A stretch of DNA of 64,000 bases, from contig OZ237773.1 of the NCBI GenBank assembly GCA_965178125.1, positions 1-64,000 on the forward strand, read 5' to 3'. The translations under genes were made by a program, and so were the position numbers. This DNA comes from Bilabrum cf. latius. Its lineage: Eukaryota. Each line of letters begins with the position of its first letter. Position 1 is the stretch's first letter. Under the pieces are notes generated by a model, which did no database searches, was not told where the DNA came from, and worked only from the letters and a program-made list of their open reading frames with translations. This document shows, piece by piece, positions 1,990 to 64,000 of the stretch.

Positions 1990-4122
1990 ATGAATGGCAC
2001 AGCCACGCACACTAGTTTGTAGCCCCACCGCACTAGTTTCGACAGTATTGCGTATCAGTATTGCTATCAGGAGCGGTTGGGGATTGTTTCATTCGCTGGT
2101 ATTGATAAATTAACTGGGCACCGAAATCGTGGAATGTATCAGCACGGTAGCAGCTTCATAAATAAAGGGATTCTGACGGGAGCGCTACATGCTGGTCACC
2201 ACACTCAGGAGTTTTGGCTGTATCAGAATGTCACGTCTTAGGGCTAGACGCCCAAGACAGTTGAAGATGTTCTACGGCGTTCAACTGCTACAAGCGGCTT
2301 GCACAGCATATTCGCGAATACTTCGATAAGAAATGTGCATTACTGGCACGATGAACCACGAAGTGGCTACTACTGTACTTGGACGCATCGGCAGTCGGAC
2401 CCGGACCCTCCATATCCGGACTGCCTCGACGTGAACACAACTTTCCGCCGCCAAGCACGAGAGCTGCTTGCAGCTGGAGTTGACTACGTGGCCACGGATA
2501 GTACAAACCTTGGCAATATAGGGCCCCTGTCCGACTTGATTCAGATTCGGCCAGAGGAGAATCTGATGCGCATGTGGGCTGCGATGAGGAAGGGGGGCGA
2601 GCCAACTCCGATGGTGGCTGCATGGCAGGTGTGCGCGCCAGGGATGGACTTGTGGAAGAGGCAGCTAGAGCTGTACAATGATCCGGACATATCCCCAATC
2701 ATCCTACGCAGCCCAAAAGACCCCTCAAAGAAAGTCTTCTTCGTGCCTTGGAAGCCAGGCAAGCCGCCCAAAGGCCCCCCAGACAACACCACAGTCGCGG
2801 CAATCGAGGCCAATGGTGGAAGGCACGACGTGACGGTCGTTTTCATGTGGGCTAATTTCGGAATTTAGGAGTACTCGAACGGGTTATGGTCCTTTTTTGC
2901 ACCATGCTTGGTCAATGACACCGACACGCCCTCAGGGCTGCAATACACCACGAGCGTGGCAGCGCCCGACCTCACACCATGCCGCCGGCCGCTGACAACA
3001 GGGTCCCCTCTTGGGACGCAGATGAGCGTCTCACCTTCGTATTAGCTAGGGCATACATCCCTTCCCCTGGCATCGGCTGGCAAGCTTGCAGGGTTTACGG
3101 TCAAGAAAATGTTCGCCAGCGTCTTCCAGAGTCGCCCCGAGAACATTTTTCTCAGCGACTGGAATGCCTTTGCTCAGGCAGGCGAGAGCAACCCGTACCT
3201 CCGAGGACAAGTGCCCTCATAGGGGCTGGGGATGGATGGCCCGTTTGACCCAGAGAGCGGACAGCTCTTTTCAGACACGTACGGCTCCTCTCTCTCCCGT
3301 GACATTGCCCCATCACGTGGGAGCGGAACCCTGTACTACGACATCGTGGCTTCGTGCATCCGGGTGGCTCGCCTGCAGGCGGCGGGACTTCCAGTGCTGA
3401 GCCATACCACTCTGTCCGGTCCTCGTGCAGCCTGCAGCGTGCAAGGGGAGCAATGCTGCGAGTTTGACCCCGCAGTTGAGGCCTGGGTCACTGCGTGGAG
3501 CGTCAGGGCCCGCAATGGGACTGACTGGATCGTGACTAGCGACCCATACTAGTACAGCCTGCTTGTGCATGCCTAGTCAGACGCATGGGAAGAGGTATGC
3601 AACCCTTTCCACGGACCCACTGCGACTTGCGTTAACACTTCGTACGCGCAGACGGGAGCTCCTTATCGGCTGAGCGGACCGTTTTTGGCTTTGAATTGGA
3701 CAGCAAGACAGGAGGCGATTCAGGAGCGAGGCGGCCCAATCCGAGGTTGGCCCACCGAGCAGCCTCATGGAGAATAGCGGAAAGCGCTCACGGCTGGCAG
3801 TCAAGTGTATCCAGAGTACTCTCTGATCAACGAAAGCACGCCTCTCTATCGGTGTGTGGTTGCCCTCGGACTGGAGGAGGCCACCTCTCGTCTGCATTTC
3901 CTCAGTTCAGCCCAGGACTGCGAGGGGATTGGAGTGCTGGATTCGCCACCGATCCTTGGGGGCGTGCTGCCGAATCGATCGTCGTTGGCACCCCGCCGCA
4001 TCCAGCGATGCGACAGAAGGGACTCTACTGGTAATCCAGTGCTCTTTTACCACGTACTAGACTGGGACGCATGCCACGAGCCCGGCGACCGGCTAAGTCC
4101 ACCGCTCGGGTATGTGAGGTGA
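1990..4122 (+). CDS. Hypothetical, probably secreted protein; possible glycoside-hydrolase-like core and Cys-containing C-terminal module (start uncertain)
   Basis: ORFs 2299-2868, 3232-3552 and 3805-4122 are in one frame separated only by TAG codons; ends TGA 4120-4122. Motifs YWHDEPRSGYYC, ELLAAGVDYVATDSTN and PLYRC...HFLSSAQDCEG. Family assignment is tentative. Confidence 0.6.
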
Positions 4123-4265
4123 CTGTTGTCTAAACCTCCACACGTCGCAGTCTTATCAGCTAGTGCTTGTCCCTTGGCCCAACACAAAATAGCTGCACCT
4201 GTCACAGCATTCACCGCTGCAGCTCACAGATCAGCCGAGGCCGCCAATGGGAACATAATGCCGTT

Positions 4266-7200
4266 TTACTTCTTTACTTTCTGCTAACCGACCGTGGCCA
4301 GCAGCAGACGTCCTCATCTGCCCTGCGAGTGCCAATGCCGAAGACGATAGCGCACCGCGGTATCTGCGGCTCTATAATACCGCACTGACAATATTCTTGC
4401 ATCTTGTTCTTAGCTCACACGTCCACGCACTGGCGAGAGACACTGCCATGCTTGACTAGCTGGCTTGAACGGTACACTCTAGCAACTCCAATGGCGAGCA
4501 GCCCGAGTCTCTTTGTGGCTGACAGACTGCGTGAAGGCCACTCGTCCATGCAGTGCACGCCTCTGCTAGCCTCATGCAGGAGAGCAGGCACGCAAGCTCG
4601 CACTTGCGTGGCCCTGGCCCCACATCTGGTACCCGCCCTTGTGCCAGCAACACATCATGCACTCGTTGGCAAGCCCACAAAAGGAAGCCTTGCTGTGCCG
4701 ATTCTGTGCCAAGCTGTGTCCGATTGAGGAACTAGGTGCATCCTGCCTGAGAGGCTTGAATTATACTTCCGATCGTGGTGCTGACTAGCAGGAGCTCATC
4801 AACCCCTGATGCAACGCTGGCTACGAGGGAGGGCTTGGCACTGCGAAGTCGCACGACGCTGCAAATACGCAGCAGTTGCCGTTGAAAGGTATTCTTCAGC
4901 TGTTCACAAATGATGGCTGAGAACCGTAGTCTAGGGTGATGGCTAGCTTGCGGACCGGTGTCTGGCAGGCAAGCCAAGTCGGCCAATCCACCGATGGTCA
5001 AGCAAAGAAGGCGACGGGTCTGGATGTGTGCACCTCTCATCCCTGCGGCAGTACTCCAAGCACCTTCAAGAAGCCCAGCGGTGTCAGCACTAGAGCTCAT
5101 TTTTTTGGAGACACGGCAGTTGCAAAGACGTCTAGCAAGCTCACGCCTAAGCTGCAGTGGCGAGCCTTGGGGTCCGACAGATGCCGCAGAAGGAGCACCT
5201 GGAAGCTCCAAAACTGCAGCATCGCATCCAAGGCTGCGCATACTATCAGCCTATGTAATGCCAGTGTCAACTCGGCCAGGAACGTTCGTAGTGGACGGCG
5301 CTGCAACACTTGTCATTGCGCTAGCGACCACTGATACTGCGCAGTTAAGCATGCTGCGGGCTCGCTGAGACATTTGTGGACCCGTTGCTCGCAATACTCG
5401 GTTGACACACTGCTGCCAAACACAGCATGCATTGCCTGCGAAGCCTACTTTAGATAAGCTCAGCTGCACTTGCGCACCTGCCGCCTTGCTCTGCAAGAGC
5501 GAGCTGAGCACATCGCCAACAAGACCAAATAAGCGATCGCCTGGCGCGTGGCTGACCTCGTTCATTTTCAACCATATCGATTGGACAGCATAACAGCATT
5601 GACCGAGTCTGAGTACACTCGCCTTGGAAGTAGCCTGCGGCGCGGCAAAGAGCATGAGATGCAGAGGGCTTGCGCTGTCCCCTGCAGACAATGAAACATC
5701 GCTTGATTCAACCAACCACAGCGGTGACACTCCAGGAACTTGAACGATCCCGCGTATGTCAAGAGATGAATGGAGAGCGACCATGCCACGACTTGCACCC
5801 CCAATAATGCTGTCCGACACAGACGTTGCTAGGGTTGTTTCGCTAACCGTTCGCACAATGCTCAGCAAAGAGACCTCCGTGGAGCAACACAACAAACTCG
5901 CCCTTGAATCTGCGTTGCTTCCTCTCGATAAAAATGCAGATGGTACTCCAATACAAGATTGCAGTTCTACACTCTGGTCGAGAGACGCTGCTCCGGCAAG
6001 GACAGTTTCACACGCCTTAGTCATTGACCACATCCCAGCAAGCTGCACACTGTTCGAGGCAGCTATTTCGCTAGTAATGATACAGCGAATGGCAGACATT
6101 AGCTTGACCAAGCATTTCACTGGCTCTGTGGAGTCACTCCTTTCTCGCTGCACCAGTAGGCCTGCCATCCATAAGGCGACCTCAACGATCTCGTCTGAGC
6201 CATGGGTGCCCGCGGTCCTCAACAGGTTTATGCACTCATCCAAAGCATTGTACGCGCCAAGGCGAGCCTGCCAGAATCGCAAGAGCGTCTTTTCACCATG
6301 CTTCGCGAGAGGCAACGTTTCATCCCAGCCGAACTAGATCAGCGCCCGTCCTGCCGCGACTCGAACACCAAGGTGCTCTCCAGAGTCGGTCCACACTTTA
6401 CACAAAACTGGGAGAATACGCGCTGCGCTTACTGCTTGGCTACTAGATCGGGAGCTAAGCGATAGCGCTAACGAACGGCGAGTTCTAGCAGCAGCTAATG
6501 AAACCTACACGCACAGCATTGCTGATTGCCTGACCTACCACTAGCGCTCATACGCTGCCCGTACCATCCAATCGAAATCAACGACCTGCAGCAACTTAGG
6601 GCAGCTAAACATGAAACTTGAAGCTGCAAACAGCAGCGATGACCCAGAGAATGTATTCATTGGCCTCACGTGGCCGCATACAATAGACGCCCACTGCTGT
6701 GCAGCTTCTGAAGAAACATCACCTTCAAACTCTGTGAGAAGGTCACCAGCACAGTGCAACAGACGATGAACAGCCAGCTGAGGCATACATGGGCTCGGAA
6801 CCAAACATTCTGGCTAATACCGCTTCATTGACTCGCATAGGATCGAGCTAAGTTGACCAAAAAGACGCAACACGCCAGTCTTGGCGGGACCTACTGATCC
6901 GAGGCGTGCCACATCACGCAGCACAGCACAGCAGCTGGCAACTGTCGCAGCTGAATCATATCCTAAATGATGGCTAGGACATTCTTTAGCTTGTAGTTGC
7001 CATGTCGGCAGTTGGCCACCGTTCAACGCGTGCTCTCGACCGCCGACTCCCATTTTCTGCACCCTTGCGATGGATCCAGTCTCGGAGTCGGTGCAAGTTA
7101 CATCCCGGTGCAGCTGCCACACCGTCCCCAGAGTTGAAGGGGTCTACGGCCATACCAATCCTCTGCCAGATTCTAAGAGTGGGTCGGCCTACAGCCGTCG

Positions 7201-10200
7201 AAGCGACAAGTATGGATCAGCGATGAGCTTGCTTCTGCAGTGTACGTGGTCAGCAGGCGTGTGCCTCGAAGGACACTACGAGCTGCACACAGATTGGATG
7301 ACTTTCATGACGTCAGCAATCACGGATGTACCAAGGCAACCTTCTTGGCCTGTGGCATACAGGCGTAGGATGTCTGATAGTGCTTCCAGTATCTTGACTC
7401 GTTCGCTGCTAGCTTTCCCACGCACACATACTGCCTACGTTGCAGCGCCGCGTGCAATAGTGCGCCAGTCGTCAGTTGAAAATATAGAACAGGGACTCGT
7501 GTCGTGCCAACAGCGAAGTACATGTGCACGGTGTCGCAAGCAGCGTGCTGCAGCCGCTGCCCAGCGCCAGCAAGCCTCCCTCTCCTCATGCGACGACACC
7601 TTGGTGCTTTCGCCGATTGGAGTTCGTACTAGGTCTGCCACTGACAAGTCAATTTTAGGCACAGTATCATGCGGCTGGCGCAATACGTACTCATGAAGTT
7701 CGAACGTACTGTTCGAGTCACAGTGATACAACACCGAAACCAGCGGAAAGGCTGCCAGCTCATCGTCGAGTAGAGGGGGTAAGAAGAACCTTTCGGTGCG
7801 GGCCGTGGAAGGAGGATGCTGATTGCCAGCCCCAGAATGCGCCTGAAACAATAGCTGCGAAAGAGCGCGTGCCGCCACTGGGCGAATTTGCTCCAGTACT
7901 TCGGACCCAGTGTGCACACCAAGCACGACACGCAAACAGAGGTACAGGACATCCATCTTCCTACCAAGCACTGAGTCGCAGGGGCGATCGGGCTGCACTT
8001 CCGTACTCGGCTCTGCGTGCGGACAGGGCCAATTCTCTGCATGCAGCAACACGTCGATGCAGCGTACCGCACAGGCTACTACGTGCGCCTGTGCATCACC
8101 TTCGTGACTCCGCCCTGGTGTAGGAGCTAGGTGCCTGCGGAACAGCATGGCTGATGTACCGTAGTCTATGCATGTACTCCAGACTAGCCGCAGATCACCG
8201 TTTATACAAAACGACTCGTCTTTGGTCGAGCAAGGGTGCTCACACACCTGTAGCACGGCGCGTGGTAGCTGCTCCCACGCTGCCCTCAACGCACCGGATG
8301 ACAAACTTGGAGCATCGTGACGCGACGATTCGCCATCACTAGCTCGAATCAGGCTGCAGAGTGCCCGAACATGGGAAGGACTGTATCTGTTACTAGTTGG
8401 TGGCAATTGTGGATGCAGCATTCCTCTCTACCCCGGCTTCATATCGCGAGCTAGGCTGCCTAGGGGATCTGCGACGAACCGCATGCATGACTTTCCGCCA
8501 GCCTTAATGCTCAAGCCCAATTCCGGCGCAAGACGCGTTGTCGCAGCAATTCGGGCTGCCTTGCATCCAGCAAAGATCATCTAGGCGTCTTTTGCCATGT
8601 CATTCACGGAATACTCGGGCACCAGTACAGGCGCTGTTCCGGCGGCTGCCTGCCTGGCAGGCTCCATTCCTGCGAGCAATGCAGAAAGCAGCTCACAGAG
8701 TTCCACGCTTTCGGGTGACCCGCCATCATGGGTGCCATGGGCTAAACATCTGGCAGTCGCCGCTGCGCACTAGACCATTCGAGGAAACGCCAGGATATTC
8801 TGCAACAGAGCGGAAGCCGTGTCCGGTAGGGATTCTCGTGGCTCCGAACAGACTCGAAGGACACGTAGAAGAGACACAGCGTGCAGAAACCTCCCAGTCG
8901 GGGCGATCCGCAACAGCAAGGCAGCGACGCGGGGGCCTGCAAGCAACACCGTCCCAGCTCGGCTGCTCACGCTCTTCTCGATTGGACGAGACCCACCAGA
9001 AGCAAGCGCTGCTCGACACAACAAATCTACCGCGCATGTTCGCAATCGTACAATCTAGCGAAAGTCGTTTGGTTGCTTGGGATCTATGCTGGATATCGCA
9101 TCAGAGAGTCCAGCGGCCACTTCGCACCGAGTTGGAGATGTCTCATCGACAGATGCCAACACGATGCCAATTGCCACTGCGGTCCACTACTCAAGCAGCG
9201 CACCAGTGGTTGTTGTTCTGGGCTCCGACGGAATCAATACCGTTTTTCCATCGGCGGAGATACCACTGTCAACGGGGGTTCCTTGCTCGGCGCGATCGAG
9301 GGCGGCTTGCAGAAGCGCGCTTGGCCGCACGTGCCCCTGAAACCTTAATCCAGCTGATAAATCGCCATGCAGCCCCGCTATTGCAACTCGAGTTGCCTCT
9401 TCCATAATGCGTATAGCATTATGACTAGTTGCCGACGTGGACCGATCGCGTGAGGCTGGTGCGCACCTTATTGCCGTGGCCTCGAGCAGCACGTCAGCAT
9501 GGCTTCGCTGCCGCATCGCAAGGGCCTCCGCCAAGCTACCAGGAGACTACGAGCGAAGGAATGCGCACCATACTGGCTCGTCGGAGGACACCAACGTCGT
9601 AGATTTACTTGCGCCCGAGCTTGCTGCAACACATGTCGCACCAAGCGACACGAGGCCTCCAACCGTACCTCCACAGGATTGAATCAAGCCAGCCAGTGCC
9701 TGGGATACAGGACAAAGCACAGCTGCCACCTAGGTTGCCAAACACTGTTCAATACGACCGCAATACGTTCGGAGGCTACGGGCAGCTTGCTATGCTAAGG
9801 CATCCAACGCGTTGCACATCCAGCCAGATACAGCCGAGCGCCGTAGAACATTTGGTACTAGCCTTGAGTTGGCAGCCTGGTGAGTTGAAGTTTTCTCAGC
9901 CAGCAGCAGCGCGACTGCCTCAGACAATGTGCTCAGGCACGAGGAGATTGCCGACGCAAGCCCTACTTGGCTCGCTACTTGGGGCGAGGCGCTGTCTCGA
10001 CTGCACGAGCCATGCACCAAACTAAGCAGCGAGCTGGCGACGCCTGCCGCTGTTGCTGCCGCGAGGGCCACCCCCAGCAAACCGTCAATTGGGCGCCTAG
10101 CCCATAGTTCAGCTCGCAAAGTAGACGTGACAGCATCGGCCTATTTTATGGGGGTTGGATTCCGCCTGAAGTCACTGGTGCTAGGCGCAGGATACTTGAA

Positions 10201-12048
10201 AATGCGATCGACAGCCTTGCCAACCCCAGTGTGCATGCTTGGCGGCAGACATATACTAGGGGAGCCTGCGCCACTTGTTGAGTCTCCCATATGAACAGCT
10301 AGGGAATGCTACGTAAACTTCCGAGCCATTGTGGACTGTTCCAAAGCCGCGTCGGTTCCTTCCAGCCAGGAGATGCCGCGCAACGCAGACCTGGCATCAT
10401 GCGATGGATCTGGCATTTTCACGCCTTGGCATGTGCCCCTGATCTGAGAAAGCGCAACGGCCGTCGCTCGCTCGCTCGGGTTGCCGTGCGAGGCAGATGC
10501 GTGTGTTGGTTGCACCCGGCCTCGAGCCAGGTCCGAGTCTCGGAGCTTTCCGATCCACTTGGCCATTGACTCGGAGCAGGCGATGAGTATATCAACTGTG
10601 CAAACATCGGAACCAGGCTACGTCGAAATTCCGTGCGACTGGACTTCATCCGGCGTTGTGACATTCCCCACGGGAAGCAAGGCCATTTGGGCCAAGCCAA
10701 TCATAAGTCGGCAGAGAAGTACTGGCAGGCAGTGCTCGCAGCTGGTCGTTCCGTGGCTACTGTAGGCAAGCCCAAGCAGCCCAGTAGCGCTCTGTGCAGC
10801 CGAACAGGGCCTTTCACTCGCACTCCATGGCACGGCGTGCTTGTCAATCAGTGAAGCGGCTCCGGGTGCGGCTCTGGCACGTTGCAACAGTGTCTCGGCC
10901 GGGAAATCTTCCAGAATGTGATGCTTGATCAGCTGTACGGTCCCTAGCAGTGACAACAAGGACGATTCGCTCGGCAAGGTGGAGCATATAGAGGCTGAGC
11001 TACCTTCTCGCAGGTGAGCCACGCGTCCTTCAAGCGGCTGTTCGCTGCGCTCAAGCAGCCTCTCACCGTGCAGTCGCAGGTGGGTCTGCGCCAAGTCCAG
11101 CACGACCTGGTCTGGTTGGGCCAGGGGGACCCATGGAAACACCAGGCACCCAGGCACCTCGCTAGACTAGTGTTCGAGCAATGCGGAACCAGAAGAGGGC
11201 GGCATGATACTCGCTGCCTCAGCCGCCTGCTAGGCAAGCAGAGCACCAGCTGCTGCAGCGGGGTCTGCCAGTCCTGCCGCCATATGGTTGAGCTTAAAAT
11301 GCAGCTCTTCGGGCACAGCGACCAGCTGAGCCCTGCTGCTGGCACAGACAGCAGTGCGCTCCTTGGGCATGCAATCGCTGGTGCTAGCCTCGGGCATTTT
11401 CGCGATTCGGGCCTCGCCAGCTCCTGCGCCGCGTGCAGGTTCCACCTCGTCCATGCATGAAATGCTCGCAGCATCAGGCAGTCCACCCGTGCAGAAGCTG
11501 TTTAATTTTTCTACGGCTTGGTGAAGAATCGAAGTATCTGCCTGACTTGGCGTCTTGATAGATCCAGATTTCGACTCTAGGGCGCGTAGCAGAGCTCCAA
11601 CTGTTGCTTGTGCAGAGGGCAACACCTGCTCTTTCGATAGGCCGCTTCCACGAAGCATATACTCTGCAATTCTCGATAGTCGATCCACGGATCCGGTCAA
11701 TCTGGGCAAGCCTGTTGTAGCGTGCGTCTAGCCAATGCAAGCGAAGGCGTCCTCGGCAACTGCGGACACAACATCGCCAAGTGCTTCGGAATTATTTACT
11801 AAAATGGCTACTGCCGCATGGGCATCGACCAATTTATGATCCAATTTGACAAGAATAGCATCTAGCAATTCAAGTATGCCATCTGATCTCGCAGCTGCGG
11901 GTAGTAGCAGAAACACATCAAAACCGGAGTACGATATCCACACACTGAGTTATCGAGGTGCCACAAGATCTGAAAATTTCACGGACTTACACAAGACATG
12001 TTCATGCAGTGCATAGACGCAGGTCTCAAACCTTTTAAGCGCTTCCAT
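4266..12048 (-). CDS. Large (~2500 aa) hypothetical protein, probably alpha-helical/HEAT-like
   Basis: ATG 12048, GT-AG intron 11895-11990, then one frame linking ORFs 11230-11709, 10618-11157, 10309-10566, 9790-10119, 9547-9729, 9187-9534, 8770-9045, 7435-8421, 6814-7122, 6541-6804, 5251-6315, 4732-5241 and 4456-4680 through >20 TAG codons; ends TAA 4266-4268. Confidence 0.75.
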
Positions 12049-52777: not shown

Positions 52778-53992
52778 CGTGTGTTAGGCCAGGAGCATCC
52801 TTAATGCTTAGCCTTGCTGAAGAACAAAATCGCCTGTCTTCTCGCTCAAGGGAGGCATGCAGAGGCGCTATCCCTTGAGCCTAGACTACAGATCAGTTTT
52901 TTTCCATCAACCACACCCATTGGCCCATCTTCACGGCTGCTGCAATCCCCACTGGTTGGCAGTTACCAAAAAGAAAATTCCTGCCCCCGGTCCCGCGGAC
53001 CCACTGGGCTTCACCCCGAACGACTGGTTCTTCACCGGTCCACCTGAATGCTATGTTTGCAGCTACGAGGCTAGCAGCGATCGCCAGCCGACGACGCTGG
53101 GTTCCGTGTACACTACGAATGTACACGCCACTTTCCCAATGCACCCGACTGGCCTCGTCGCCACATGGCTTCCTGTTCCCGTTCCCCGCCCTAGGGACTG
53201 TGTGCTTTGCTCCCTGCATTGCCACCTTGGCCCTATCCTTTCAGCTTGCACGTGCCGGTCCTGGCCGAGCTGCCGTGCGCCCCATCTGTCCACCCACCTG
53301 TTGGCCCTCTGCGTGCTGCTGGCCATGCAGCCCGCTGCACCCGCGTCTCCCTCGTGCCTTGCGCCTGGAGCCCCCATTCCTCCCGTTGTGATCTCCCTGT
53401 TGACACCGCACTGTCGTCGTCTGTGCCGGTGTCCCCCTCTTCTTCTCCACCTCCTGTCCTCCTGCGCCCACCTCGTCTTCCTGCTCACCTCTGCTCCCCG
53501 TTGCTTCAATCCTGATGTCCGAGTACATATAACGAGGCCACCTTGTTGAAAGTCGACGAGACACTGCAGTACCAAGGCAAAATCATGAAGGCAATTGACA
53601 TGTACAAGCAATGCTTTGCGATCCGTGATGAAGTGCTGGGGAAGGACCACGTCGGCTATTTGGGGACTCTAGGCCGTATGGCTAGGTGCCACGCCCAAGG
53701 GGGCAAACCGGCTAGTTCTACCGCATTTGAACCTAGACTTAAGATTAGATTTGTTCCTTCAACCACACCCATTGGCCAGCTCGCAGCCCGCCACGGCCAC
53801 AGCTCAACCGAGTGGCGGGCTTGCTGTTGGATTCAGGCCGTGGCCCTTTCTGGGTGCCATGATCCTGTCGTTGCAGCCCTCTGTGCATCCAGAGGATCCG
53901 GGGGTTGCGTCGGTGCTTCGCACTGCCGACGCAGGCGTCCGCGCCTCGGCTGTACAGCAGTTGCGACCGGGCGCAGAGTAAGGTTGCCGTAA
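52778..53992 (+). pseudogene. Degenerate TPR-module remnants downstream of the TPR gene
   Basis: After the TAA the frame still reads RVLGQEHP*CLA...AQGRHAEALSLEPRLQISFFPSTTPIG. A diverged second copy, QYQGKIMKAIDMY...VLGKDH...EPRLKIRFVPSTTPIG, lies at ~53560-53780. Confidence 0.5.
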
Positions 53993-54051
53993 GTTTCAGA
54001 GGCTAAGGTAAAGTGGAACAGGGCATTTTTGATTGTATCTTCGCGTCTTTT

Positions 54052-57000
54052 TCAGAGCTGAACACTCAAGAGCTACGAACAAGCCTACACCACACGCCAA
54101 CTTGCCGAACACGTCGGATCAAAATCCAGTGCCTTGCGCACGAGACCGTCGGACAGATCTGCTGGCAGAACCCTACCGGCTACAATAGACTCGACAGTGC
54201 TCTTCGCAGCGTCTAGCTCGCTCTTTGCTTGAACGCTACCCGCCTTTAGCTCATCTATTGCCGTCAGTCTTTCGAGCTTCGGGGAATCTAACGCTTCTCG
54301 AAGCGCATTAGCCTGCCCTCGAGCTGCGACCACCTCCTCCCAGAAATCGTTGTCTCGATCCGCTGGAAACACATCGCTTACTGCTGGAGGCAAAACCGGT
54401 GACCCCAGTTCCTGCCCAGCCAAAGCGACGGCGATAGACACCGTCCCCTCCCGCGCCGACTGCAGCGTATCCACAGCTTCTGCCACAGCTCTAGCCAGCC
54501 CACTGGCAAGAACTTTAGCACCAACAGCCTTAGGTACGACGTGGCCTTCTGCCAGCACCCTCCACACGCTTTGTGTGGCCACATCTTCGCTGCCAGCGGT
54601 AACTTGCCCTGCAGGCCCACCCCCGCCACTAGCTGCAGCAGTAGCACCGTGCACCGCTGCACGGGCGGCATCCCTCACCTAGTCGTCCTCATCTGCCAGC
54701 AGCTGCGCAGCTACTTCCCACGCCCGCCCATGCCCTTCCACTCCCCCATCTCCAGCACCAGCTAGCAGTTGCCCGCTTGCCAGCGCCCTGCCAGCCTCCA
54801 GCCGGTGCCTCCACTCCCTGCGATCCACTGCCGCACGCCCCACCACGGAGAGAAGCCCTTCCAGCCAAGCACTGCGCACAGTGGCAAGATCTCCCTCTGC
54901 GCACAGCAACACGCTGGACACCGCGCTCAGTGATCGGATCACGCGCACCCTGGCGCGATCGTCCGAGTCCTCCCCGTACATGCGAGCCAAGCCCGTCGCC
55001 AGCCCGTCCTGCCCCGCCATCCACCGAGCCAGCTCACCGGAGACGTCTCCCTCCAGTCCAGAGGCAAGGGCAGCCAGGGTCTGCCGGCGCTCGAACATGT
55101 GTTCCCCGAGGCCCATCCGTTCAGGCTGCGGCACTGGCCCGAGGGTCGTGGATGCCAGCCGGATGGCCGCCTGTCTCACCTCTTCCTCCACTGGCAGCTG
55201 GGGTTGCTCCCGGGGTGCGAGAGCATCCGCATCACCGCTAGATACACCACCTGGTGACTCGATGAGCAGTTGCAGCGTCCCGCACGCCTTCACGGCCTCC
55301 TTGAACGGAAATTGCCCGCCCGACTCACTAGCACCACCCAGCCGTGCTGCATCAGCTGCCTCTTTGGCCAGCCTCAGCCGCACGGCCCTTTTGGCTGCCA
55401 GCCTGACTTCATGCTCCGGGTGACTGCAGCACAGCCAGGACAGCCGAGCCCACCCAGGGACCTCAGTGCCCGCATCAGCACCGGCATTCTGCGCGGCTGT
55501 CTCTAGCTCGGCAGCCGCAGCCACTTCAGCACATGCCCCGAGCCATTCCCCAGCGGCAGGGAGCAAGCCGATGCGAGATGATCCGGGCTGATTGGCGGTT
55601 GTAGCTGCTGCATCGCACGCTATATTGCCGGAAGCAATCAAGCAGGCACCAACGACAGAAGCGCTGTCATTGTCTCCAGCGGCGCGGTAGATGTCCATCG
55701 ACTCCCGCAGCATCCTCATCGCTTCCAGCCGCTCCATAGGAGAGAATCCAACCGCTGCACCGTATGCAGTTGCAGCACTGCAGCTTGCCGCTCCAGCTGC
55801 CAGCGCACCGGCTAGGGCCTGCCTGTCTAGCAACTCGCCGAGCGCTTGCTTGAGCTCGTCGCCAGCCCCTGCAGCATGAGCCGCAACAGCCAAAGCAGCG
55901 CTCCACGCCTCAACGTGCTGTGTACATTCGCGGGCATGTCCTTGGGATCGCATGTGCCTCAGCAGGCGCCGCAATGCCATGAATCCCCCGCACAGCTCGT
56001 TTCGCTGCTGGGAAACCCGCGCTTTCCCAGATGCCACGCCCACCGCGGACAGCACCATGTCCTGCATCGCACTCATCACACCCTCAAGCCGATCCACGGG
56101 AGTGGCAGCGGCCAGCGCCCTAGTGGCTGCTCTGCGAGCCAGCTCGGAGGGATGTGCCACGAGCGCCGCGACGCTCCTCACGCAGCCGGCATACCTGTCC
56201 ATCCAGACGGGAGGCTGCTCCCCTGCCTCGGTCTTGGCCTGCGCGCCAGCATTGGTCTTAATGGAGAGAGCGGCCTTCACCGGCTTGAGCCTAGAGAATA
56301 GCAGAAGCACGGGCTGCAGCGAGGGCCGGACGGCTTTGTCCAGGTCCGCTGCCAGGCTCAGCTCCTCATGCAGGAGCTCTGCCAATTCCTCCGATGCAGC
56401 AAACAGCGCGTTGGCGGGCTGCACCGCCCCCCCCTTTGTGTTCCCCGAGGCGTCCTCTCGCCACGTGTCGTTGGCGCTGGCCTTGCCGCCGCAGAATCGA
56501 GCCGTGGCAGACGCAAATAGCATGAGCGCCGCGTTCCGCACGGGCCACCGGGAGGACCTGAAGCCAAGGGTGGCAGCGGCGAAGCACTCGGGCACCAGAC
56601 CCTCTGCCACTCTGGACGTGGCCTTGTCTGCCAGCAGGAAGTGGAGGAGCGTGAGCGCGTGAATCCGGGCATCAGGTGTGACCACCATCTCGCTCGCCTG
56701 CAGCGCGCCAGCACCACTCGCTGCGCCACTGGTGGGACCACTCTTCGCGTGATCGCCTCGTTCCTCTTCCCTGGCACGGGCAATAGGCAGCAGCCTCCGG
56801 AACATGGAGGCAGTCATCTCCCTTGCACTAGCCGTTCCCTCGCTGCCCCCGCCCTTGCCCGACTGGGAGATTGACCTTCCTGCAGCCTTGGCCGCTGCCT
56901 TGGAGACGCCCCCCCTCGTCCTCACCCGCAGCGCAGCGACCGACTCGCCTCTCGCCACCGCCGACACCGCCGCGGCCAGGCCCCCGCTCCTCCTCAACAC

Positions 57001-60000
57001 GCTGTCCCGGCGACGCACCGACACCGTCTCCATGAGTCCGTCCGTCCACCCCCATGCAGTGGCCCGCATGACCGGGTCCGACCTCCCCACGTGCGCCGCC
57101 TCTGTGACAACGACCTCGAGCGCATCCGCGGCGTGCTTCACCGCCCCCATGTGGTGCATCACCATGAGGCTCCTGCACAGAGAGTCGCCGATCCCACGGA
57201 CCACGGCTCGCGCGAGTAGAATCCGGCTGGGCACTTCGCCGTCCGTGTGGCTCCCACCAGAGGCAGCAGATGACCCTTCGCTGGAGACCACGTCATCGAC
57301 TGCGCCACTTTGCCCACCCTACAGCATGGTGGTGGCATCGGTCGGCAATGCTGAGTCATCAGGTACCCCGACTCCTCCAAAGGGGACAGAAGCAACGAGC
57401 CCAGCCAGGCAGGCAGTGGCCTCCTTGCAGACCATCCACCCGCTCACGCTCATGAGCTGGCCCGCGGCCTCACCTGTCGATCTCCCGCTGTCCCGGGCCT
57501 CGGCCCCACGCATGCCCGCGGCTTGCGCACCGCCCAAGGGTGTACCATCGGCATTCTTTTTATCATCACCGGCCTAAACGGCCCCATCCGGTCCCGATAC
57601 CCCCTCCGCACCCTACCCTTCTCTTAGCACGACGTGCCCCCTTGCGTCCAGCTCCAGAGCCTCGCTCGCGTCCGCGTCGCCCTCCGACACACCCACCCAC
57701 GCAGGTACCGCTGCACTGTCATGCGATACACCCGGAAGCACCGGGATGGCTTCGGTTCCACTGACCACCACTCTGGCCACCGCAAACGCCCTGGCGCATA
57801 CGTGCGCATACATCGCGAGCAGCGGGCGCCACAGCCCGGCACACGCAGAGCTTGGAGCAGAGGCCGCCCCGGCTTTGAATCCGAGAGAGCCGATCAGAAG
57901 GCGGCAGGCCATCAGCAGCCCGTGAGGCAGCGGCACGCGGAGAGCACCCCCGTCTGCAGCGCCTGGTTGGCTTCTGTCTCCCGACCCGATGGGCAGATCG
58001 GTGACGTCTCTCCTCACCCGCCCAGCAGGCCCCAGCTGCTGCTACAGGAATGCAGCCAGGGCAGAAGTGCGCCGCCGGATGCACCACAAGAGGTCGTACA
58101 GGGCCAGCGCCTGCACCGCTCTAGCCTCATCCAGGCCACCGACGGAGCCTACACAAGCATCAGTGGCTGCCTCGAGCACTGCCTTGCCTTCTCCTGTCTC
58201 AAGGTATGCCGCCCCCGCTTCTCTCCCCGCCTCATGCACCACCAGTGGCAGCCTAGCCTCGGCTAGGGTGGCAATCATTGCACCCCTGTCCATGCCTTTG
58301 CTGCCGGCGCTCAATCCCGTTTGCTGCCGTGCTGTGGCAGCGGCGGCCTTCCTGCCAGCCAGCTGGGCCAGCACGTGGATGGTCCTCGCCCCGCCCTCCG
58401 CCTCCTTCTCCTTGGGCGAGTGAGTGGTCAGCACTGCCAGGCGGACTCTGAGATCGACGTCTTCTCGCGCACTGAGGCCGTCAAGCTGCTCCGGTACCGC
58501 CAGCAGCAGCTCCTAAGCACCCCGTCGAGTGGGCTCCCACCGCGCTCCCAGGCTGGACGCGAGCAACTCTACCGCAGGGCGCGGCAATAGGTGCGTCAGG
58601 ACACTCGTCATAGAATCTGCGAACGAAGAGTCAGCCGGGAGCCCTTTGCGATCTTTGGCTACGGCTGCAAACCTGTCTGCGCTCGCCTGCTGCGCTACTG
58701 CTTGCAGCACCTGCAGGGGTAGCTGAGTGCGGTCGTTTGGTGCGCCGGGGTACATCATCAGCAGCGATGATTTCACGATCGCCCCCACACCCGCGCTGCA
58801 GGCCCGCACGAGCAGCATGTTCTGGTCGCTCTCCGGTGGCCCGAGGGATGCCGCTGCCTTTGCCACCGAGGCTGGCATTAGGTCAGTGCCTCGTCCTGCG
58901 GCCGCTGCTTGCGATTGTTTGCTCGCCCCTTTTCCTTTATGCGCCTTTTTTTCACCCTTCCTGCCCTCCCTCGTGTCACTCTGGGAGAGCGAGTGGTCCT
59001 GCTTGGCTGCAGGCGGCACTGCGAGCCCCTCCTTGCTGGCCGCAATCAGAGCACGGACCTCGTCAGGCACCCTGGAGCCGCCCTCCACCACAGGTAGAGG
59101 CCCGTGCTCTCTGTCAGAGAGGGCAGACTCGAGAGCGGCCCGGAGCGCCCTAAACCCGGCAAGCGTCCTGCGTGCCGGCTGGGCCGTCCTAAGCAGCACC
59201 TCGACAAGGCCCGAGAGGGAGCGCAGGGCCTGGTCCACTGTTCCCCTGGATGAGGAGGGCAGCTTGCTGGAGGCCCGGAGGAAGACTGCCACCAGCGCGA
59301 TCAGCTCGGCAGGGGGTCGGTCCCCGATGCTGAGCGAGTCGCACAGCAGCTTAAGCGTTGACACACGGATATCCAGGTGGGGATGCATCAGGCACTGCGC
59401 CGCCTCGCTAAAGCTCAGCACAGAGTCGGGCTGCGTGCTCGACGTGGCAGCGGCTGCTCGGCCAAACCCGCTGAGCGGGATCGATGCGAGGATGCCGTCC
59501 GCTGCCCCGGATTTAGGGCCTCTGCTGCTCGCAGTGCTGCGCTGCCGGACTGCCTCAACTTCGCCCGGACCCATGGCTGCTAGCGTCTCGCCCAGCACGG
59601 CCATCGGATCTACCGGTGTTTCCAGCCCGCTGGCGTCGCACATGATCGGAGCACCGAGCGCCTTGCTTCCCGCTTCGATGCAGGCATCCAGACGACCCAC
59701 CTGCTCTGCGCCCAGAATGAGGTACCCCTGACTACCTCCCACCTTCAGCTGGCCCTCGCCTTTGCTCGATTGCGCCGCTCGTAGCACCACCAGCAGCGCC
59801 CGGGTCTGTCGGGGACTCCGACTCGCACTCGTCACACCTCCATGCAGCGGAGTGTCGTCCTCTTTCCTCTCGGCCAGCTCCGTCCACAAGTCCTCCTCCA
59901 GCTCGCCGTCCCCCCAGTCGACTGCGGCGCCCGCTCCGCTCCTGGCCTTGCTGATGTCGGGCAGAGCCGCAAGCAGCCCGGAGCCACCAGACTATGCCCC

Positions 60001-63000
60001 ATGGCCGCCCCTCCCCGGCGAAGCCAAAGCCGCGAATCCACCCGGCCCTGAAGCACCACCCTGCAGCCGGATAGACACCTCCTGCACGGCCCCTGGATCC
60101 ATGGAGAACAGCGGGGGCAGCACCTCCGTGCTCAGCGCGAATCGAGCCCCCTCACTGCCTGCAAGCAGCAGCGCAACCACGTCCTCCATCCACGCCTCCC
60201 TCCAGGCGGCAGTGGCGGCCTCTCGAGCGGACAGAACCGCCGGGTCGGAGTCGTTCATCGCTTGTTCCCGGGCCTTCTCCCGGGCCTTCTTCCGCCGGTA
60301 ACGACCGCTGCTCTGGTCGAGGGGCGGATCGGCGGACTGCGACGGCTTCGAGGCACCCGAGCTGGAGTCCGCTGCTGCGCCTGGCCCCGGTGCATTGCCC
60401 TTGCCCTTGCCCTTGCCCTTGCCCTTGCCCTTGCCCTTGCCCTTCAATTTCTTCTTCATGGCATCCCGCGGGTCCTCCACCGGCGTGATGCTGTGCATGC
60501 GCCGCAGCCTGTCAAACGCTTGCCCGCCAACTCGCGCCAGGGAGGAACCCTCGGGCGCCGCACCGGCGCGAGGCAGGGCGCGCCTCCCGCCAGGAAGAAG
60601 ACTGCCACTCCCCGAAAGACCATCACTCCCAGGGAAACCCCCACCAGCCGGTCGCAACCTGCTCCCCAGCCCACCCAGGTTCTAGGGCACTCCTGCCTCC
60701 TGCGAGGAAGGCACCGCTGCAGTCGCTGACGATGGCCCGCCGCTACTGCTGCCCTCGTCGCTGCCAGACCTAGCCCCTAGCGTACCAGTCGTTGACGCAG
60801 CCGCGGCCAAGCGGCTCCCGCTGCTGCCCGCCATGGGAGACGGTTTCGCTGGAAGCCCCGCTTCCCGGCGGAGACCGCTGAGCCGGGACAGCGGAGAGCC
60901 AGCGCCCGCGAGCCCGGCAGCCGATCCACCTGTAGATCCAGCGCCGGCCGGTTTCTTCTGTCTGGACCTGAGGACGGCAAGAGGATCCACAGCCACCCCC
61001 ACGCTGTCGTTCCTCGTAAGCCGGCTCCTGTAGTCGTCAGTGACCCGCTCGAAATCCTCGTCAGTCATCGCGCTATCATCCAAGCCGTCGTCGCCATCGC
61101 CTCCGCTGCCAGATGCCTCGCTCACGTCGAAGCCAGCTCCGATCGGATACACCCACCCGCTGATCTTGCGACCGCTGCCCACGGCATGCCCGGGCACGAG
61201 CCCTGCGTCCCTCTCGCACTCCACCCGCGCCCCCACCAGCAGATCAAGCAGCACCTCTGCGCCTAGCCCCACGCCGGAGCCCTTCGACGTGCCCATCGAC
61301 ACCAGCTTGTGGGCCAGTCCGGGCACGAGGCTAAGAATCTGCTGGCATCCCACCGAGGGAACAAGAGCCTACAGAGTGGACAAAGCCGCGCGATTCCCGA
61401 GCTGCTTCCCGGCAAAGGAAGCGGCCACCGCTACGGGCCAGCCCTCCAGAGCGTCTGCCAGATCCACGGCATGCCCCGCGGCCCGCTGCAAAGGCACGTC
61501 ACCAGCGCCAACCAAGGGTGAGGACTGGCCAGCAAGCCCACTCGCACTCCCAGCACCCGTGCTCGCGCCAAGCAGCCCGCCAGGCGGTAGCCCCTGCTGC
61601 CTCCTGAGCCCGCTGCCCCCAGCGGCGCCAGACCCACGTCGGAGCTTGCTGGGCGGCGAGGCCGCGGGTGACCCAGCGCCCCCGCCCCCGCCCAGGGGAC
61701 TTGCCCCCCTGGGTCCAACTGACCCCGGGGACACCGACCCCGAGTTGCCCCTCCCCACCGGACTGGGCGATGAGCCGCTTGGCTGCTGTGCGCCCGTGCG
61801 CCTGCCGCTGGATCTGGTCCTGCCTGGCGAGCTGCCCGCAGCGGCTGCATTCGCTTGTTCCCTGGCAAGCGCCCTCAGCACGCGCGCTTGTGCCTTGCCC
61901 GCCGCGTCCAGCGCCCGCACCAGCCGCGGCAGCACCTGTTGCTGCCGCTTCATCTGCGCGTGCACGTCTGCCGACGACCCAGCTACGAGCGAGTCGCTCA
62001 GCGCAGGCCAAATCACCACGCCGGCGGCATGGTCAGAGCTTCCCGACGCCGCCGAGCGGCAGGACCGCGCCAGGATCTCAGGATGGTTCGCGGACATTTC
62101 CAGGAAAGCCGCCGCGCAGTCGAAGGCCTCTGCCGCCGCGTTCCCGCTGAGGCCCCTCCCTTGCCTGCACAGGCTGCCCACCAGCGCGAGCCCCAGGCAG
62201 CGGAGCGGCCGGGGGCTGCCCTGGTCCCTTGACGCGCTGTTCGAGCCCAGGGGAGGTAACTGGCCAATCGCTGCGTCCAGGGAGGGTGCCGCAGGGTCCT
62301 CGGATGGGATCGCCCGCAGCAGCAGGTCTGCAGGCACTGCATCCACCACCGCTCTGACGATGAGGTCGGTTGCAACCGAGGCCCGGCCCACGAGTGGGAG
62401 GCCCGAGGGCAGCGAGAGCCACGGCGACTCCTACCTTCCATCGCTGCTGCCACCCTCAGTCTGAATCTCTCGCACTTCTCCTCCTCGTTGGCTACCTGCA
62501 AGCGCCCCGTGGCATGCCGTGGACAGGAGAGACGAGGCGGCCGATGCCAGGGACCGGGTGGCAAACCCAGAGCCCTCCGCTGCATCGCGATCCATCGCTG
62601 CCTGTGCCTGTTCCCTGGCAGCCTGCAGGAGAGCAGCAGCGGCAAAGCCAGCCGACTGTGTGCTACAGGCCCCCCTGCACCCCTGCTACACCACCAGCCC
62701 GCACGCGATGGAAACGAGGGAAGGAAGGATGCTGCCGCTTGCATCATCATGCAATGCACCCACAGAATCGCCGCTGCTCGAATCAGCCGCAGAACTGCCA
62801 GTATGGGCCCCTTCGCCCGCGAATGCCGCCTCCACCTGCGCAGCCAACGAGTCGAGGAGAGACGCGTCTCCTGCGTTGCCACCCGGCACACTGCCCAGCG
62901 CCAGAACCATTGCAATCGTCACACCTGGCAGCGCAAGTATCTCCTGCAGGCACCTGAGCGCCTGGCCGGCCTCCTTGGCGGCTGCATCAGCGTCCCTCGC

Positions 63001-64000
63001 GCCCACTGGCGCATCCGTGGCGCCCTCAGTGTTGGTATCAGTGACGGAGGGCAGCTCGCCTGCCTCACCCGGGGTCATGCCCAGAGTGCGGCAGCATTCG
63101 CTGATTTTCTTCCACACTCGGCCCACGACAGCTCTCAGGGACCCCTAGATGCCACACCCAGCACTTCTTGCCGCATCTCTCTGCCTCTGTCTCGCTTTAC
63201 CGCGATCGGCCGATCCTGCGGCCCCGAGCCCGGGCCCAGACCCAGCTCTCGGCCCAGCAGCCGACCCATCCACGCTGAGTCCGAGCGACTCCGAATCCTT
63301 CCCGCCTTGTTCCTCGGCGTCCTGGTCCTCCTCCAGCAGGACCAGCGCAAAGGCGGCCCGAACCACCCCGTTGCTGCAGTGCAGTGCATCCGCGATGTCC
63401 CCCAGGCCGGGAGGCAGGGCCAGCAGCGCCGCCTCGCTCCCTGCGGCGGCCGCCCCCTGCAGCAGGCCACGTTCCGTTTCATCGGTCTCTTCAGGCTGAT
63501 TTGCCTGCAAAATGCCGGACCTGGCGCCCATCTCAGTCGCCGCACCGATTGGCGCGTCGAATGTGAGGTCACTCGCGTCATCGTGGCCAAAGTCACTGCC
63601 CCCGTCATGGCCAGCCCCACTGGTCGGGCTCAAACCACCCAGCGCGCCGGCCCGTGGCTGTATGATTGTAGCAACCACATCAGCGCATGCCCGCACCACC
63701 ACGCAAGTCCGTTCCTCCCTCGAAAGCGGAACCAAGGATTGCGCGGCGCCGCTTCGCCTGCCCTCGAGCGATTGCGCGCCGACCCTGGCTGCCCTGACGA
63801 TCGCGTCGCAGGAACCCTCCGTGTCGTTTGTTCCCTGGGGAACAGAGGCCTCCCGGGTCCCGTCTCCGCGCAGCACAGCGGCCCCGGCAGCCGCCGCCGC
63901 CTCTGGCTCCGGCCCGCACAGATCCGCCAGGAGAGCGGAGGCGGCTGGCCGAAGGGCTTGAGCGCCAGCGCGCGTGGCAAGCCAGCCCGCGTATCGCGCC
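54052..64000 (-). CDS. THADA: THADA/Trm732 family armadillo protein (DUF2428), 5' end outside the window
   Basis: GWMVCKEA, HMGAV, LRRSGGL, RIHALTLL, GFRSSRWPVRNAALMLF and PVLLLFSRL. About 10 kb single frame joined only by TAG codons; ends TGA 54052-54054. Confidence 0.85.
60395..60444. repeat. (TTGCCC)n coding microsatellite giving poly-KG in THADA
   Basis: About 8 copies of TTGCCC, translating as KGKGKGKGKG on the minus strand. Confidence 0.85.

What the first reader, a model, noticed from the sequence alone, without database searches (positions are those of the whole stretch)
1990..64000. Non-standard nuclear genetic code: UAG encodes glutamine while UAA and UGA remain stops
Seen: 15 of 16 genes, including MCM4, CDC45, BRF1, kinesin, TMEM67 and CCDC39, are interrupted by in-frame TAG codons with no frameshift. 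Junctions I translated showed no internal TAA/TGA. Established motifs identify the residue: BRF1 SSVVG*FVS at 27885 (family motif GQFVS), carrier KVLL*TQ at 14429 and KSQM* at 14135 (Px[DE]xxKxxxQ), and TMEM67 G*ANLAEKTLVD at 35817 (human GQKNLASKTLVD, from memory). Established: UAA and UAG are usually reassigned together (many ciliates, hexamitid diplomonads, some ulvophytes). UAG-only reassignment is known from few lineages, e.g. the fornicate Iotanema spirale (Gln), a rhizarian (Leu) and some ciliates. Inference: the GC-rich genes, TTAGGG telomere and ~100-nt introns do not look ciliate-like, so this may be an independent, undescribed recoding. Sequence style suggests a bicosoecid/Cafeteria-like stramenopile, but I cannot establish the taxon.
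Basis: partly seen in the sequence, partly recalled or inferred. Interest (0 to 1): 0.97.

Follow-up and report, generated by a model that had tools for sequence, protein, structure and literature searches.

The report
UAG read as glutamine, stramenopile-like nucleus
This chromosome end of a Cafeteria-like flagellate reads the stop codon TAG as glutamine while apparently still stopping at TGA and TAA, a rare genetic-code variant that I could not find reported for this group of organisms.

Summary
The window is a eukaryotic chromosome end with a CCCTAA telomere.

**TAG is a sense codon.**
- Fifteen long reading frames (18,841 codons) hold 123 in-frame TAG and no internal TAA or TGA. The two other frames hold 58/65 TAA and 280/372 TGA.
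- Pfam domains (MCM4, CDC45, BRF1, kinesin, Meckelin, CCDC39, a mitochondrial carrier) run across the TAGs.
- Gene-sized, intron-spliced contigs from other public runs keep 27 of 36 TAGs unchanged.

**TAG means glutamine.**
- Homologues have Q at carrier columns 39 (103/104) and 137 (120/120), and at BRF1 column 169 (113/150).
- An 86%-identical relative has Q where the rest of the BRF1 family has D.
- Summed log-odds over 12 usable columns give Q +12.3 bits and the runner-up −7.6. The same method recovers 49 of 52 ordinary codons.

**Open points.**
- The tRNA and eRF1 could not be examined.
- One gene tail with two in-frame TAA is unexplained.
- The closest named relative is Cafeteria, at 42–50% identity.
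- Seven literature searches found no nuclear code change in stramenopiles.

The code itself (UAG = Gln only) is already known from Iotanema and some ciliates, so this is a new member of a known kind.

The parts
1..1044 (.). Telomere, (CCCTAA)n, 174 copies: a chromosome end
1807..4122 (+). Frame of 771 aa with no Pfam family; 11 in-frame TAG; ends in TGA
4231..11949 (-). Frame of 2572 aa with no family above cut-off; 27 in-frame TAG; ends in TGA. A 78%-identical relative's predicted protein (P0286) spans exactly aa 1177-1504, between this frame's TAG 1174 and TAG 1505.
13616..14545 (-). Mitochondrial carrier (carnitine/acylcarnitine-like) exon; 5 TAG
14429..14431 (-). TAG at carrier aa 39; homologues have Q in 103 of 104
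14135..14137 (-). TAG at carrier aa 137; homologues have Q in 120 of 120
14159..14161 (-). TAG at carrier aa 129; Q in all 9 closest homologues, 38 of 120 overall (I in 55)
14759..18091 (+). JmjC-domain protein frame; 6 TAG; ends in TGA
22145..24775 (-). Kinesin; 3 TAG within the transcript-like contig; ends in TAA, with a second in-frame TAA 3 codons later
25005..28391 (-). BRF1 (TFIIB repeats plus BRF1 domain); 10 TAG; ends in TGA
27885..27887 (-). TAG at BRF1 aa 169 (G-x-FV); Q in 113 of 150 relatives
27384..27386 (-). TAG at BRF1 aa 336; the family has D in 144 of 150, but the 86%-identical relative P0137 has Q
28695..32412 (-). MCM4; 3 TAG in the main exon. Two introns, 31801-31913 and 32047-32260 (GT..AG on this strand), are removed in contigs of runs X5 and X6.
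32545..35652 (+). CDC45; 5 TAG; in-frame 90-nt intron 32931-33020 removed in contigs; ends in TGA; the contig ends at 35674
35769..40430 (-). Meckelin (TMEM67); 8 TAG, all in the last 240 aa; ends in TGA
35817..35819 (-). TAG 15 codons before the Meckelin stop; human Meckelin has Q here. The conserved C-terminal motif lies downstream, so this TAG is read through.
40441..43521 (+). CCDC39; 5 TAG; ends in TGA
43778..45913 (+). Lon_C-domain protein; 1 TAG; ends in TGA
46439..52777 (+). TPR-repeat protein with 26 units of 42 aa; 15 TAG. In the conserved Q column of the 25 complete units the codons are CAG 18, TAG 4, CTG 2, CAT 1. Ends in TAA.
52775..53047 (+). Tail after the TPR gene's TAA. The frame goes on with recognisable repeat sequence, a second in-frame TAA at 52802-52804, then TGA. 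It is either a recently truncated end or TAA read-through.
54052..63999 (-). THADA/Trm732-like protein, at least 3315 aa (runs off the window); 14 TAG; ends in TGA

Best explanation
The nuclear genes of this organism are translated with a variant genetic code. UAG is an ordinary glutamine codon, making up about 14% of glutamine codons here. UGA (the main stop) and UAA terminate translation. This is the code of NCBI table 15. The organism is a GC-rich, flagellated, Cafeteria-like stramenopile.

**Shown here.**
- TAG lies in frame in every long gene.
- TAG stays in spliced, transcript-like contigs.
- TAG sits at positions where homologues, a close relative and paralogous repeats have Gln.

**Inferred, not tested here.**
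- UAG is decoded by a tRNA-Gln with anticodon CUA. A UUA anticodon would also read UAA.
- eRF1 has lost recognition of UAG while keeping UAA and UGA.
- TAG codons arise mostly by neutral C-to-T changes from CAG. Their density falls with GC3 just as that of CAA does.
- A related environmental organism probably shares the code.
For: 1. **Frames.** There are 123 in-frame TAG and 0 internal TAA/TGA in 18,841 codons of 15 frames. Off-frame counts are TAA 58/65 and TGA 280/372. Thirteen frames end in TGA and 2 in TAA.
2. **Domains.** Eleven of the 15 frames match Pfam families at E<=0.001, and the matches run across TAGs. MCM4 matches yeast MCM4 at E 5.5e-198.
3. **Transcript-like contigs.** Contigs from 4 other runs in 3 studies show no difference at any TAG they cover; the only difference in 19.9 kb is at 23194. 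X5 and X6 contigs are gene-sized, stop in intergenic DNA and lack three GT..AG introns. Listed X5 pieces cover 27 of the 36 TAG in 22100-42000 with 0 differences.
4. **Residue at conserved columns.** Carrier aa 39 has Q in 103/104 homologues and aa 137 in 120/120. Carrier aa 129 has Q in the 9 closest. BRF1 aa 169 has Q in 113/150, and at aa 336 the 86%-identical relative has Q. Human Meckelin has Q at the TAG site. In the TPR repeat Q column the codons are CAG 18 and TAG 4 of 25.
5. **Log-odds.** Over the 12 usable of 17 TAG columns, Q scores +12.3 bits and the next best, D, −7.6. The same procedure returns the standard meaning for 49 of 52 sense codons that have at least 8 columns. The largest margin among its 3 failures is 6.7 bits.
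6. **TAG near a gene's end is still sense.** The Meckelin TAG lies 15 codons before TGA, with the conserved motif downstream.
7. **Codon behaviour.** TAG density against GC3 gives rho −0.48 (p 9e-5). CAA gives −0.47 and CAG +0.47.
Against: - **Many TAG columns say nothing or point elsewhere.** Kinesin aa 248 aligns with N in all 4 printed kinesin-1 chains. BRF1 aa 336 is D in 144/150 relatives and aa 1031 is D in yeast. CDC45 aa 700 is K in human. MCM4 aa 971 is T in 18 of 55 aligned and Q in 1, though yeast has Q. Seven of the 8 Meckelin columns are variable or gapped. In the variable TPR column 11, TAG (5) sits beside TAT/TAC (7), so Tyr is not excluded by that column alone.
- **No tRNA to inspect.** The window holds no tRNA gene, and no genome is held.
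- **Neither eRF1 nor peptides could be checked.**
- **RNA status is inferred.** The runs' status as RNA is the tool's guess. I infer it from the splicing and the contig ends.
- **TAA as a stop rests on thin evidence.** Only 2 gene ends use it, and the TPR tail carries 2 in-frame TAA in sequence that still looks selected: 8 of 18 differing codons are synonymous, by my count.
Confidence: 0.9

Rival explanations
1. TAG is a sense codon but stands for a residue other than glutamine, for instance Asp/Glu, Asn, Tyr, Lys or Leu, as in other reassigned-UAG lineages.
For: - Kinesin aa 248 aligns with N.
- BRF1 aa 336 is D in 144/150 relatives and aa 1031 is D in yeast.
- In TPR column 11, TAG sits beside TAT/TAC.
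- CDC45 aa 700 is K in human.
Against: - Summed log-odds: Q +12.3 bits, D −7.6, N −11.4, K −12.4, Y −19.6, E −19.8, L −25.3. The method is calibrated at 49 of 52.
- Two columns are invariant for Q, 120/120 and 103/104.
- The close relative has Q at the 'D' column.
Confidence: 0.04
2. The meaning of TAG is not fully switched. It is read as Gln by efficient read-through (near-cognate tRNA-Gln CUG, or a suppressor) while still ending some genes, depending on context, as in Condylostoma or Blastocrithidia-type codes.
For: - No tRNA or eRF1 data are available.
- Several frames have a TAG within 6-26 codons of the final TGA: THADA aa 3305 and 3309 of 3315, CDC45 aa 1023 of 1035, CCDC39 aa 1000 of 1026. 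I could not show that these tails are translated.
Against: - None of the 15 frames needs TAG as its stop.
- The Meckelin TAG, 15 codons before TGA and about 80-100 nt from the contig end, must be read, because the conserved C-terminal motif follows it.
- A TAG frequency of 6.5 per 1000 codons in essential genes such as MCM4 and CDC45 would be very costly if termination competed.
Confidence: 0.08
3. TAA is also decoded, rarely: a UAR reassignment or TAA read-through in a genome where TAA is almost absent. The code would then not be UAG-only.
For: After the TPR gene's TAA at 52775 the frame continues with clear repeat homology through a second TAA. Both TAA align with Glu codons of the closest unit. 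In the next unit 8 of 18 differing codons are synonymous, similar to the 0.39 seen among ordinary units.
Against: - There are 0 TAA in 18,841 in-frame codons against 61.5 expected at off-frame rates.
- The kinesin frame ends in TAA with another TAA 3 codons on, as tandem stops do.
- TAA is one transition away from a sense TAG, so a recent truncation followed by decay explains the tail.
Confidence: 0.05
4. Artefact: systematic base-call or assembly error (CAG read as TAG), RNA editing, or decayed pseudogenes.
For: None found.
Against: - Contigs of four other runs in three studies agree at every covered TAG.
- The transcript-like contigs keep TAG.
- Only one kind of 'stop' interrupts the genes and there are no frameshifts.
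- Domain matches are intact.
Confidence: 0.01

Closest known systems
Iotanema spirale (Fornicata): UAG = Gln, UAA and UGA stops (Panek et al. 2017, PMC5304391; I read passages)
   Same: UAG alone is reassigned to glutamine, and UAA is kept as a stop. The same mechanistic prediction applies: a tRNA-Gln with a CUA anticodon and an altered eRF1.
   Different: It is an unrelated supergroup, an anaerobic metamonad. There UAA is the primary stop; here TGA ends 13 of 15 frames. That case is known from transcriptomes, whereas this is a telomere-bearing genomic contig of a GC-rich genome. Its eRF1 carries T32G in the GTS motif; eRF1 was not seen here.
Ciliates with UAG = Gln only: Protocruzia tuzeti and two phyllopharyngean lineages (McGowan et al. 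2024, PMC11687900; I read passages of the Discussion); NCBI table 15
   Same: The codon table is the same.
   Different: This window does not look ciliate-like. It has TTAGGG-type telomeres, 54-69% GC, long genes with spliceosomal introns of 90-214 nt, and best named hits to a stramenopile.
UAR = Gln codes (NCBI table 6: many ciliates, hexamitid diplomonads, Ulvophyceae, Streblomastix, Amoeboaphelidium; listed in PMC11687900)
   Same: A stop codon becomes glutamine, probably through a mutated tRNA-Gln.
   Different: TAA is not used as a sense codon here: 0 in 18,841 codons.
Rhizarian exLh (UAG = Leu) and Scotinosphaera (UAG = Ser) (PMC5304391 and PMC11687900, passages)
   Same: The meanings of UAG and UAA are uncoupled in a nuclear genome.
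   Different: The amino acid differs. Here Leu scores −25.3 bits and Ser −14.4 bits against +12.3 for Gln.

Membership tests
Nuclear code with UAG = Gln and UAA/UGA = stop (NCBI table 15 type) | In-frame UAG inside conserved protein-coding genes, kept in the mRNA | tested here: met
   There are 123 TAG in 15 frames. Pfam domains span them. Spliced gene-sized contigs cover 27 of 36 with no change. That those contigs are RNA is my inference from the splicing and the contig ends.
Nuclear code with UAG = Gln and UAA/UGA = stop (NCBI table 15 type) | UAG positions correspond to glutamine in homologues | tested here: met
   Q scores +12.3 bits and the next best −7.6 over 12 columns. Controls give 49 of 52. 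Two columns are invariant for Q.
Nuclear code with UAG = Gln and UAA/UGA = stop (NCBI table 15 type) | UGA still terminates | tested here: met
   Thirteen of 15 frames end in TGA and none has it internally. Meckelin ends at the same residue as the human protein, and the contigs end 22-34 nt after TGA.
Nuclear code with UAG = Gln and UAA/UGA = stop (NCBI table 15 type) | UAA still terminates and is not a sense codon | tested here: met
   There are 0 internal TAA against 61.5 expected. Two frames end in TAA, one with a tandem TAA. Caveat: the TPR tail carries two in-frame TAA.
Nuclear code with UAG = Gln and UAA/UGA = stop (NCBI table 15 type) | A tRNA-Gln with anticodon CUA and none with UUA | not testable with these tools
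   The window holds no tRNA gene and no Rfam match. No whole genome is held.
Nuclear code with UAG = Gln and UAA/UGA = stop (NCBI table 15 type) | eRF1 N-domain changes (GTS, NIKS, YxCxxxF) that weaken UAG recognition | not testable with these tools
   eRF1 is not in the window, and I had no seed sequence from a tool.
UAR = Gln code (NCBI table 6) | UAA used as a glutamine codon alongside UAG | tested here: not met
   There are 0 TAA in 18,841 in-frame codons.
Context-dependent stop/sense codes (Condylostoma, Blastocrithidia type) | The reassigned codon also ends genes when close to the 3' end | tested here: inconclusive
   No frame needs TAG as its stop, and the Meckelin TAG 15 codons before TGA is read. 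Three other frames have a TAG within 6-26 codons of TGA in tails that are not conserved.
Stramenopiles, Bicosoecida-like | Phylogenetic placement by rRNA or many proteins | not tested
   I have only best named hits: Cafeteria roenbergensis at 42% (Meckelin) and 50% (carrier). The window holds no rRNA.

The most novel reading that the evidence does not exclude
This is the first nuclear genetic-code change in stramenopiles. It would be an independent origin of UAG = Gln with UAA kept as a stop, in a free-living, GC-rich flagellate lineage whose environmental relatives share it. Because the genome is GC-rich and TGA-terminated, UAG cannot have been lost through AT pressure. The change would therefore have passed through an ambiguous stage rather than through codon capture.
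Probability: 0.55. Interest if true: 0.8.

Novelty: new member of a known kind. Interest (0 to 1): 0.72.

Why it matters
- **Rarity.** Nuclear code changes are rare, and cases where UAG and UAA have different meanings are rarer still. The 2024 review passage I read lists Iotanema, a rhizarian, Scotinosphaera and a few ciliates. A stramenopile case would add an independent origin in a major supergroup.
- **Usefulness for experiments.** It comes with a telomere-bearing assembly, and the organism turns up in several public runs, so it may be tractable.
- **Theory.** It tests ideas on how eRF1 can tell UAG from UAA, and on whether reassignment needs the codon to vanish first. That is unlikely in a GC-rich genome.
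- **Practical cost.** Standard-code gene calling shreds these genes. The database's own proteins for this locus are fragments of 85-174 aa from a 2572-aa frame. Relatives in metagenomes are likely mis-annotated in the same way.

Tried and rejected
- **Whole genome.** None is held for this window, so tRNA-Gln(CUA), eRF1 and genome-wide statistics were out of reach.
- **tRNA and Rfam scans of the window.** Nothing was found.
- **Metagenome scan with MCM4.** It gave 80 loci, but none was a close relative (best segment identities 29-61%). Their MCM4 columns at the three TAG sites were variable.
- **Meckelin homologues.** Seven of the 8 TAG columns are variable or gapped, so they say little.
- **First kinesin PDB search.** It returned nothing at E<=1e-60. 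I repeated it at 1e-20.
- **Sequencing runs.** No listed holder is on record as RNA. The RNA nature of X5 and X6 is inferred from splicing.
- **Rejected reading: pseudogenes, editing or sequencing error.** See the rival explanations.
- **Rejected reading: a 16-nt 'intron' to remove the TPR gene's TAA.** This is far shorter than the 90-214 nt introns seen.
- **Supplements.** I did not open the supplementary files of the papers. The eRF1 alignment of PMC5304391 is in a supplement.
Full report
**1. What the window is.**

The first 1044 bases are 174 copies of CCCTAA, followed by a 43-bp subtelomeric repeat. GC content is 54-69%. It is therefore the end of a eukaryotic chromosome. The window holds no tRNA gene and no Rfam family.

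**2.

Under the standard code the long frames are broken, and the longest is 1316 aa. With TAG read through, frames of 3315, 2572, 2112, 1553, 1128, 1110 and 1058 aa appear.

In the 15 long frames I took, there are 123 in-frame TAG among 18,841 codons and no internal TAA or TGA. Thirteen frames end in TGA and two in TAA. The other two frames of the same DNA hold 156/141 TAG, 58/65 TAA and 280/372 TGA. TAG is thus about as common in frame as out of frame, while the other two stops are excluded.

The frames were defined as free of TAA and TGA, so the meaningful figure is their length. At off-frame stop rates the chance is about 1e-170, and 61.5 in-frame TAA would be expected. Trimming to the first ATG, and for kinesin to the end of the transcript-like contig, leaves 116 TAG by my count. 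Every frame keeps at least one.

**3. The frames are real genes.**

Eleven of the 15 match Pfam families at E<=0.001:
- a mitochondrial carrier, a JmjC protein, kinesin and BRF1 (TFIIB repeats plus BRF1 domain);
- MCM, CDC45, Meckelin and CCDC39;
- a Lon_C protein, a TPR protein and a THADA/Trm732-like protein.

Four have no family. The MCM is MCM4, matching yeast MCM4 at E 5.5e-198. The matches run across TAG codons.

**4. TAG is in the message.**

Public runs from several studies hold this DNA. I laid contigs of four runs from three studies on 22100-42000.

- The only difference in 19.9 kb is one T>C at 23194, so base-call error is excluded.
- The contigs of X5 and X6 behave like cDNA. They are gene-sized and they stop in intergenic DNA. 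For example, the CDC45 contig ends at 35674, 22 nt after its TGA, and the Meckelin contig starts at 35735, 34 nt after its TGA.
- They lack three GT..AG introns: 31801-31913 and 32047-32260 in MCM4, and 32931-33020 in CDC45.
- Listed X5 pieces cover 27 of the 36 TAG in that stretch with no difference.

The tool marks the RNA status of these runs as a guess. The splicing is my reason for reading them as RNA.

**5. Which residue.**

Many TAG sit at variable positions and say nothing. This applies to Meckelin (7 of 8 columns) and to MCM4 aa 275 and 856.

Some columns point away from Q:
- Kinesin aa 248 aligns with the conserved N.
- BRF1 aa 336 aligns with D in 144/150 relatives, and aa 1031 with D in yeast.
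- CDC45 aa 700 aligns with K in human.
- MCM4 aa 971 aligns with T in 18 of 55, although yeast has Q.

The conserved columns are clear:
- Carrier aa 39 has Q in 103 of 104 homologues and aa 137 in 120 of 120.
- Carrier aa 129 has Q in all nine closest homologues.
- BRF1 aa 169 has Q in 113 of 150 relatives.
- Human Meckelin has Q at the last TAG.
- At BRF1 aa 336 the one close relative in the database (P0137, 86% identical, from a metagenome) has Q where all others have D. The lineage-specific residue is therefore Gln, written there with an ordinary codon.

Within the TPR gene, the conserved Q column of the 25 complete 42-aa units reads CAG 18, TAG 4, CTG 2, CAT 1. Because of a 10-unit duplication, only two of those four TAG are independent.

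I summed profile log-odds over the 12 of 17 TAG columns with enough occupancy. Q scores +12.3 bits, D −7.6, and every other residue lower. The same procedure on the same alignments returns the standard meaning for 49 of 52 sense codons that have at least 8 columns. Its three failures have margins of at most 6.7 bits, against 19.9 for TAG.

**6. The stops.**

TGA is secure. Meckelin ends at TGA one residue after the motif with which the human protein also ends, and contigs end shortly after TGA.

A TAG 15 codons before that TGA must be read, because the conserved motif follows it. This argues against position-dependent termination at TAG.

TAA ends two frames. In kinesin a second TAA follows three codons later.

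One thing does not fit neatly. After the TPR gene's TAA (52775) the same frame continues with clear repeat homology through a second TAA (52802) to a TGA near 53047. Both TAA align with Glu codons of the closest unit. In the following unit 8 of 18 differing codons are synonymous, similar to ordinary units at 0.39.

I read this as a recently truncated end. TAA is one transition from a sense TAG. Rare TAA read-through is not excluded.

**7. Codon behaviour.**

TAG makes up 123 of 881 glutamine-type codons, or 14%. Its density falls with GC3 (rho −0.48, p 9e-5) as CAA's does (−0.47), while CAG's rises (+0.47). This fits a synonymous, AT-richer alternative to CAG, though it would fit other AT-rich codons too.

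**8. Mechanism.**

What is shown is sections 2 to 6 above. What is inferred follows the argument in Panek et al. 2017 (passages). Because UAA is not decoded, the decoding tRNA must carry anticodon CUA. eRF1 must also have lost its grip on UAG while keeping UAA and UGA. Neither could be looked at here.

**9. Relatives.**

A Logan-assembly protein (P0286, 78% identical) covers aa 1177-1504 of the 2572-aa frame. It starts at the first Met after this genome's TAG 1174 and ends exactly before its TAG 1505. A standard-code gene call would look like this if the relative has stops at the same places. I infer a shared code but could not fetch the DNA.

The database's own proteins for this locus are fragments of 174, 109 and 85 aa.

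**10. Taxon and novelty.**

The best named hits are Cafeteria roenbergensis, at 42% for Meckelin and 50% for the carrier. That fits a bicosoecid-like stramenopile but does not place it. The ciliary genes Meckelin and CCDC39 show it is flagellated.

The code itself is known. UAG = Gln with UAA as a stop is reported in Iotanema spirale, Protocruzia tuzeti and two phyllopharyngean ciliate lineages (PMC11687900, Discussion passages; PMC5304391, passages).

Seven full-text searches found no nuclear code change in a stramenopile. The only stramenopile hit was a cited paper on labyrinthulean mitochondria. The library lacks most subscription journals, and I did not open any supplements.

**Verdict.** The finding is real and well supported. 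It is a new lineage for a known variant code, with the tRNA, eRF1, proteomics and the TAA tail left open.

Noticed in passing
window 52775-53047 and 53534-53800: After the TPR gene's TAA the frame continues with degenerate TPR sequence through a second in-frame TAA. About 0.75 kb downstream, a further degenerate TPR unit is followed by the same 'EPRL.I.F.PSTTPIG' tail. These look like relics of repeat units. They could be a recent truncation or TAA read-through.
   Followed up: partly
window 49569-52800: The TPR gene is a 126-bp tandem array of 25.7 copies. Ten units (aa 1075-1494) recur with the same amino-acid sequence at aa 1495-1914, which indicates a recent internal duplication of about 1.26 kb. 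This halves the number of independent TAG sites in the repeats.
   Followed up: partly
window 1046-1223: A 43-bp subtelomeric tandem repeat of 4.1 copies lies directly next to the telomere.
   Followed up: no
window 45867-46086: A 68-bp tandem repeat (3.2 copies, 96% matches) spans the 3' end of the Lon_C gene and the spacer before the TPR gene.
   Followed up: no
window 38993-39401: One X5 contig skips 407 nt inside the Meckelin coding region with non-intron ends (TG..TG, 5 bases shared). This may be an assembly collapse in GC-rich low-complexity sequence, or a length variant.
   Followed up: no
window 35769-36482: All 8 Meckelin TAG lie in the last 240 of 1553 codons, where local GC drops. 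The 32001-36000 bin is 55% GC against 67% for 36001-40000. TAG density tracks local base composition across the window.
   Followed up: partly
window 32931-33020: The CDC45 intron is 90 nt, in frame and free of TAA/TGA, so a read-through frame hides it. Only the spliced contigs revealed it.
   Followed up: yes
window 4231-11949 (proteins P0287-P0289); relatives P0137, P0286: Database gene calls for this organism are short fragments cut at TAG. Two environmental or Logan relatives (86% and 78% identical) exist, so a wider lineage may be mis-annotated in public collections.
   Followed up: partly
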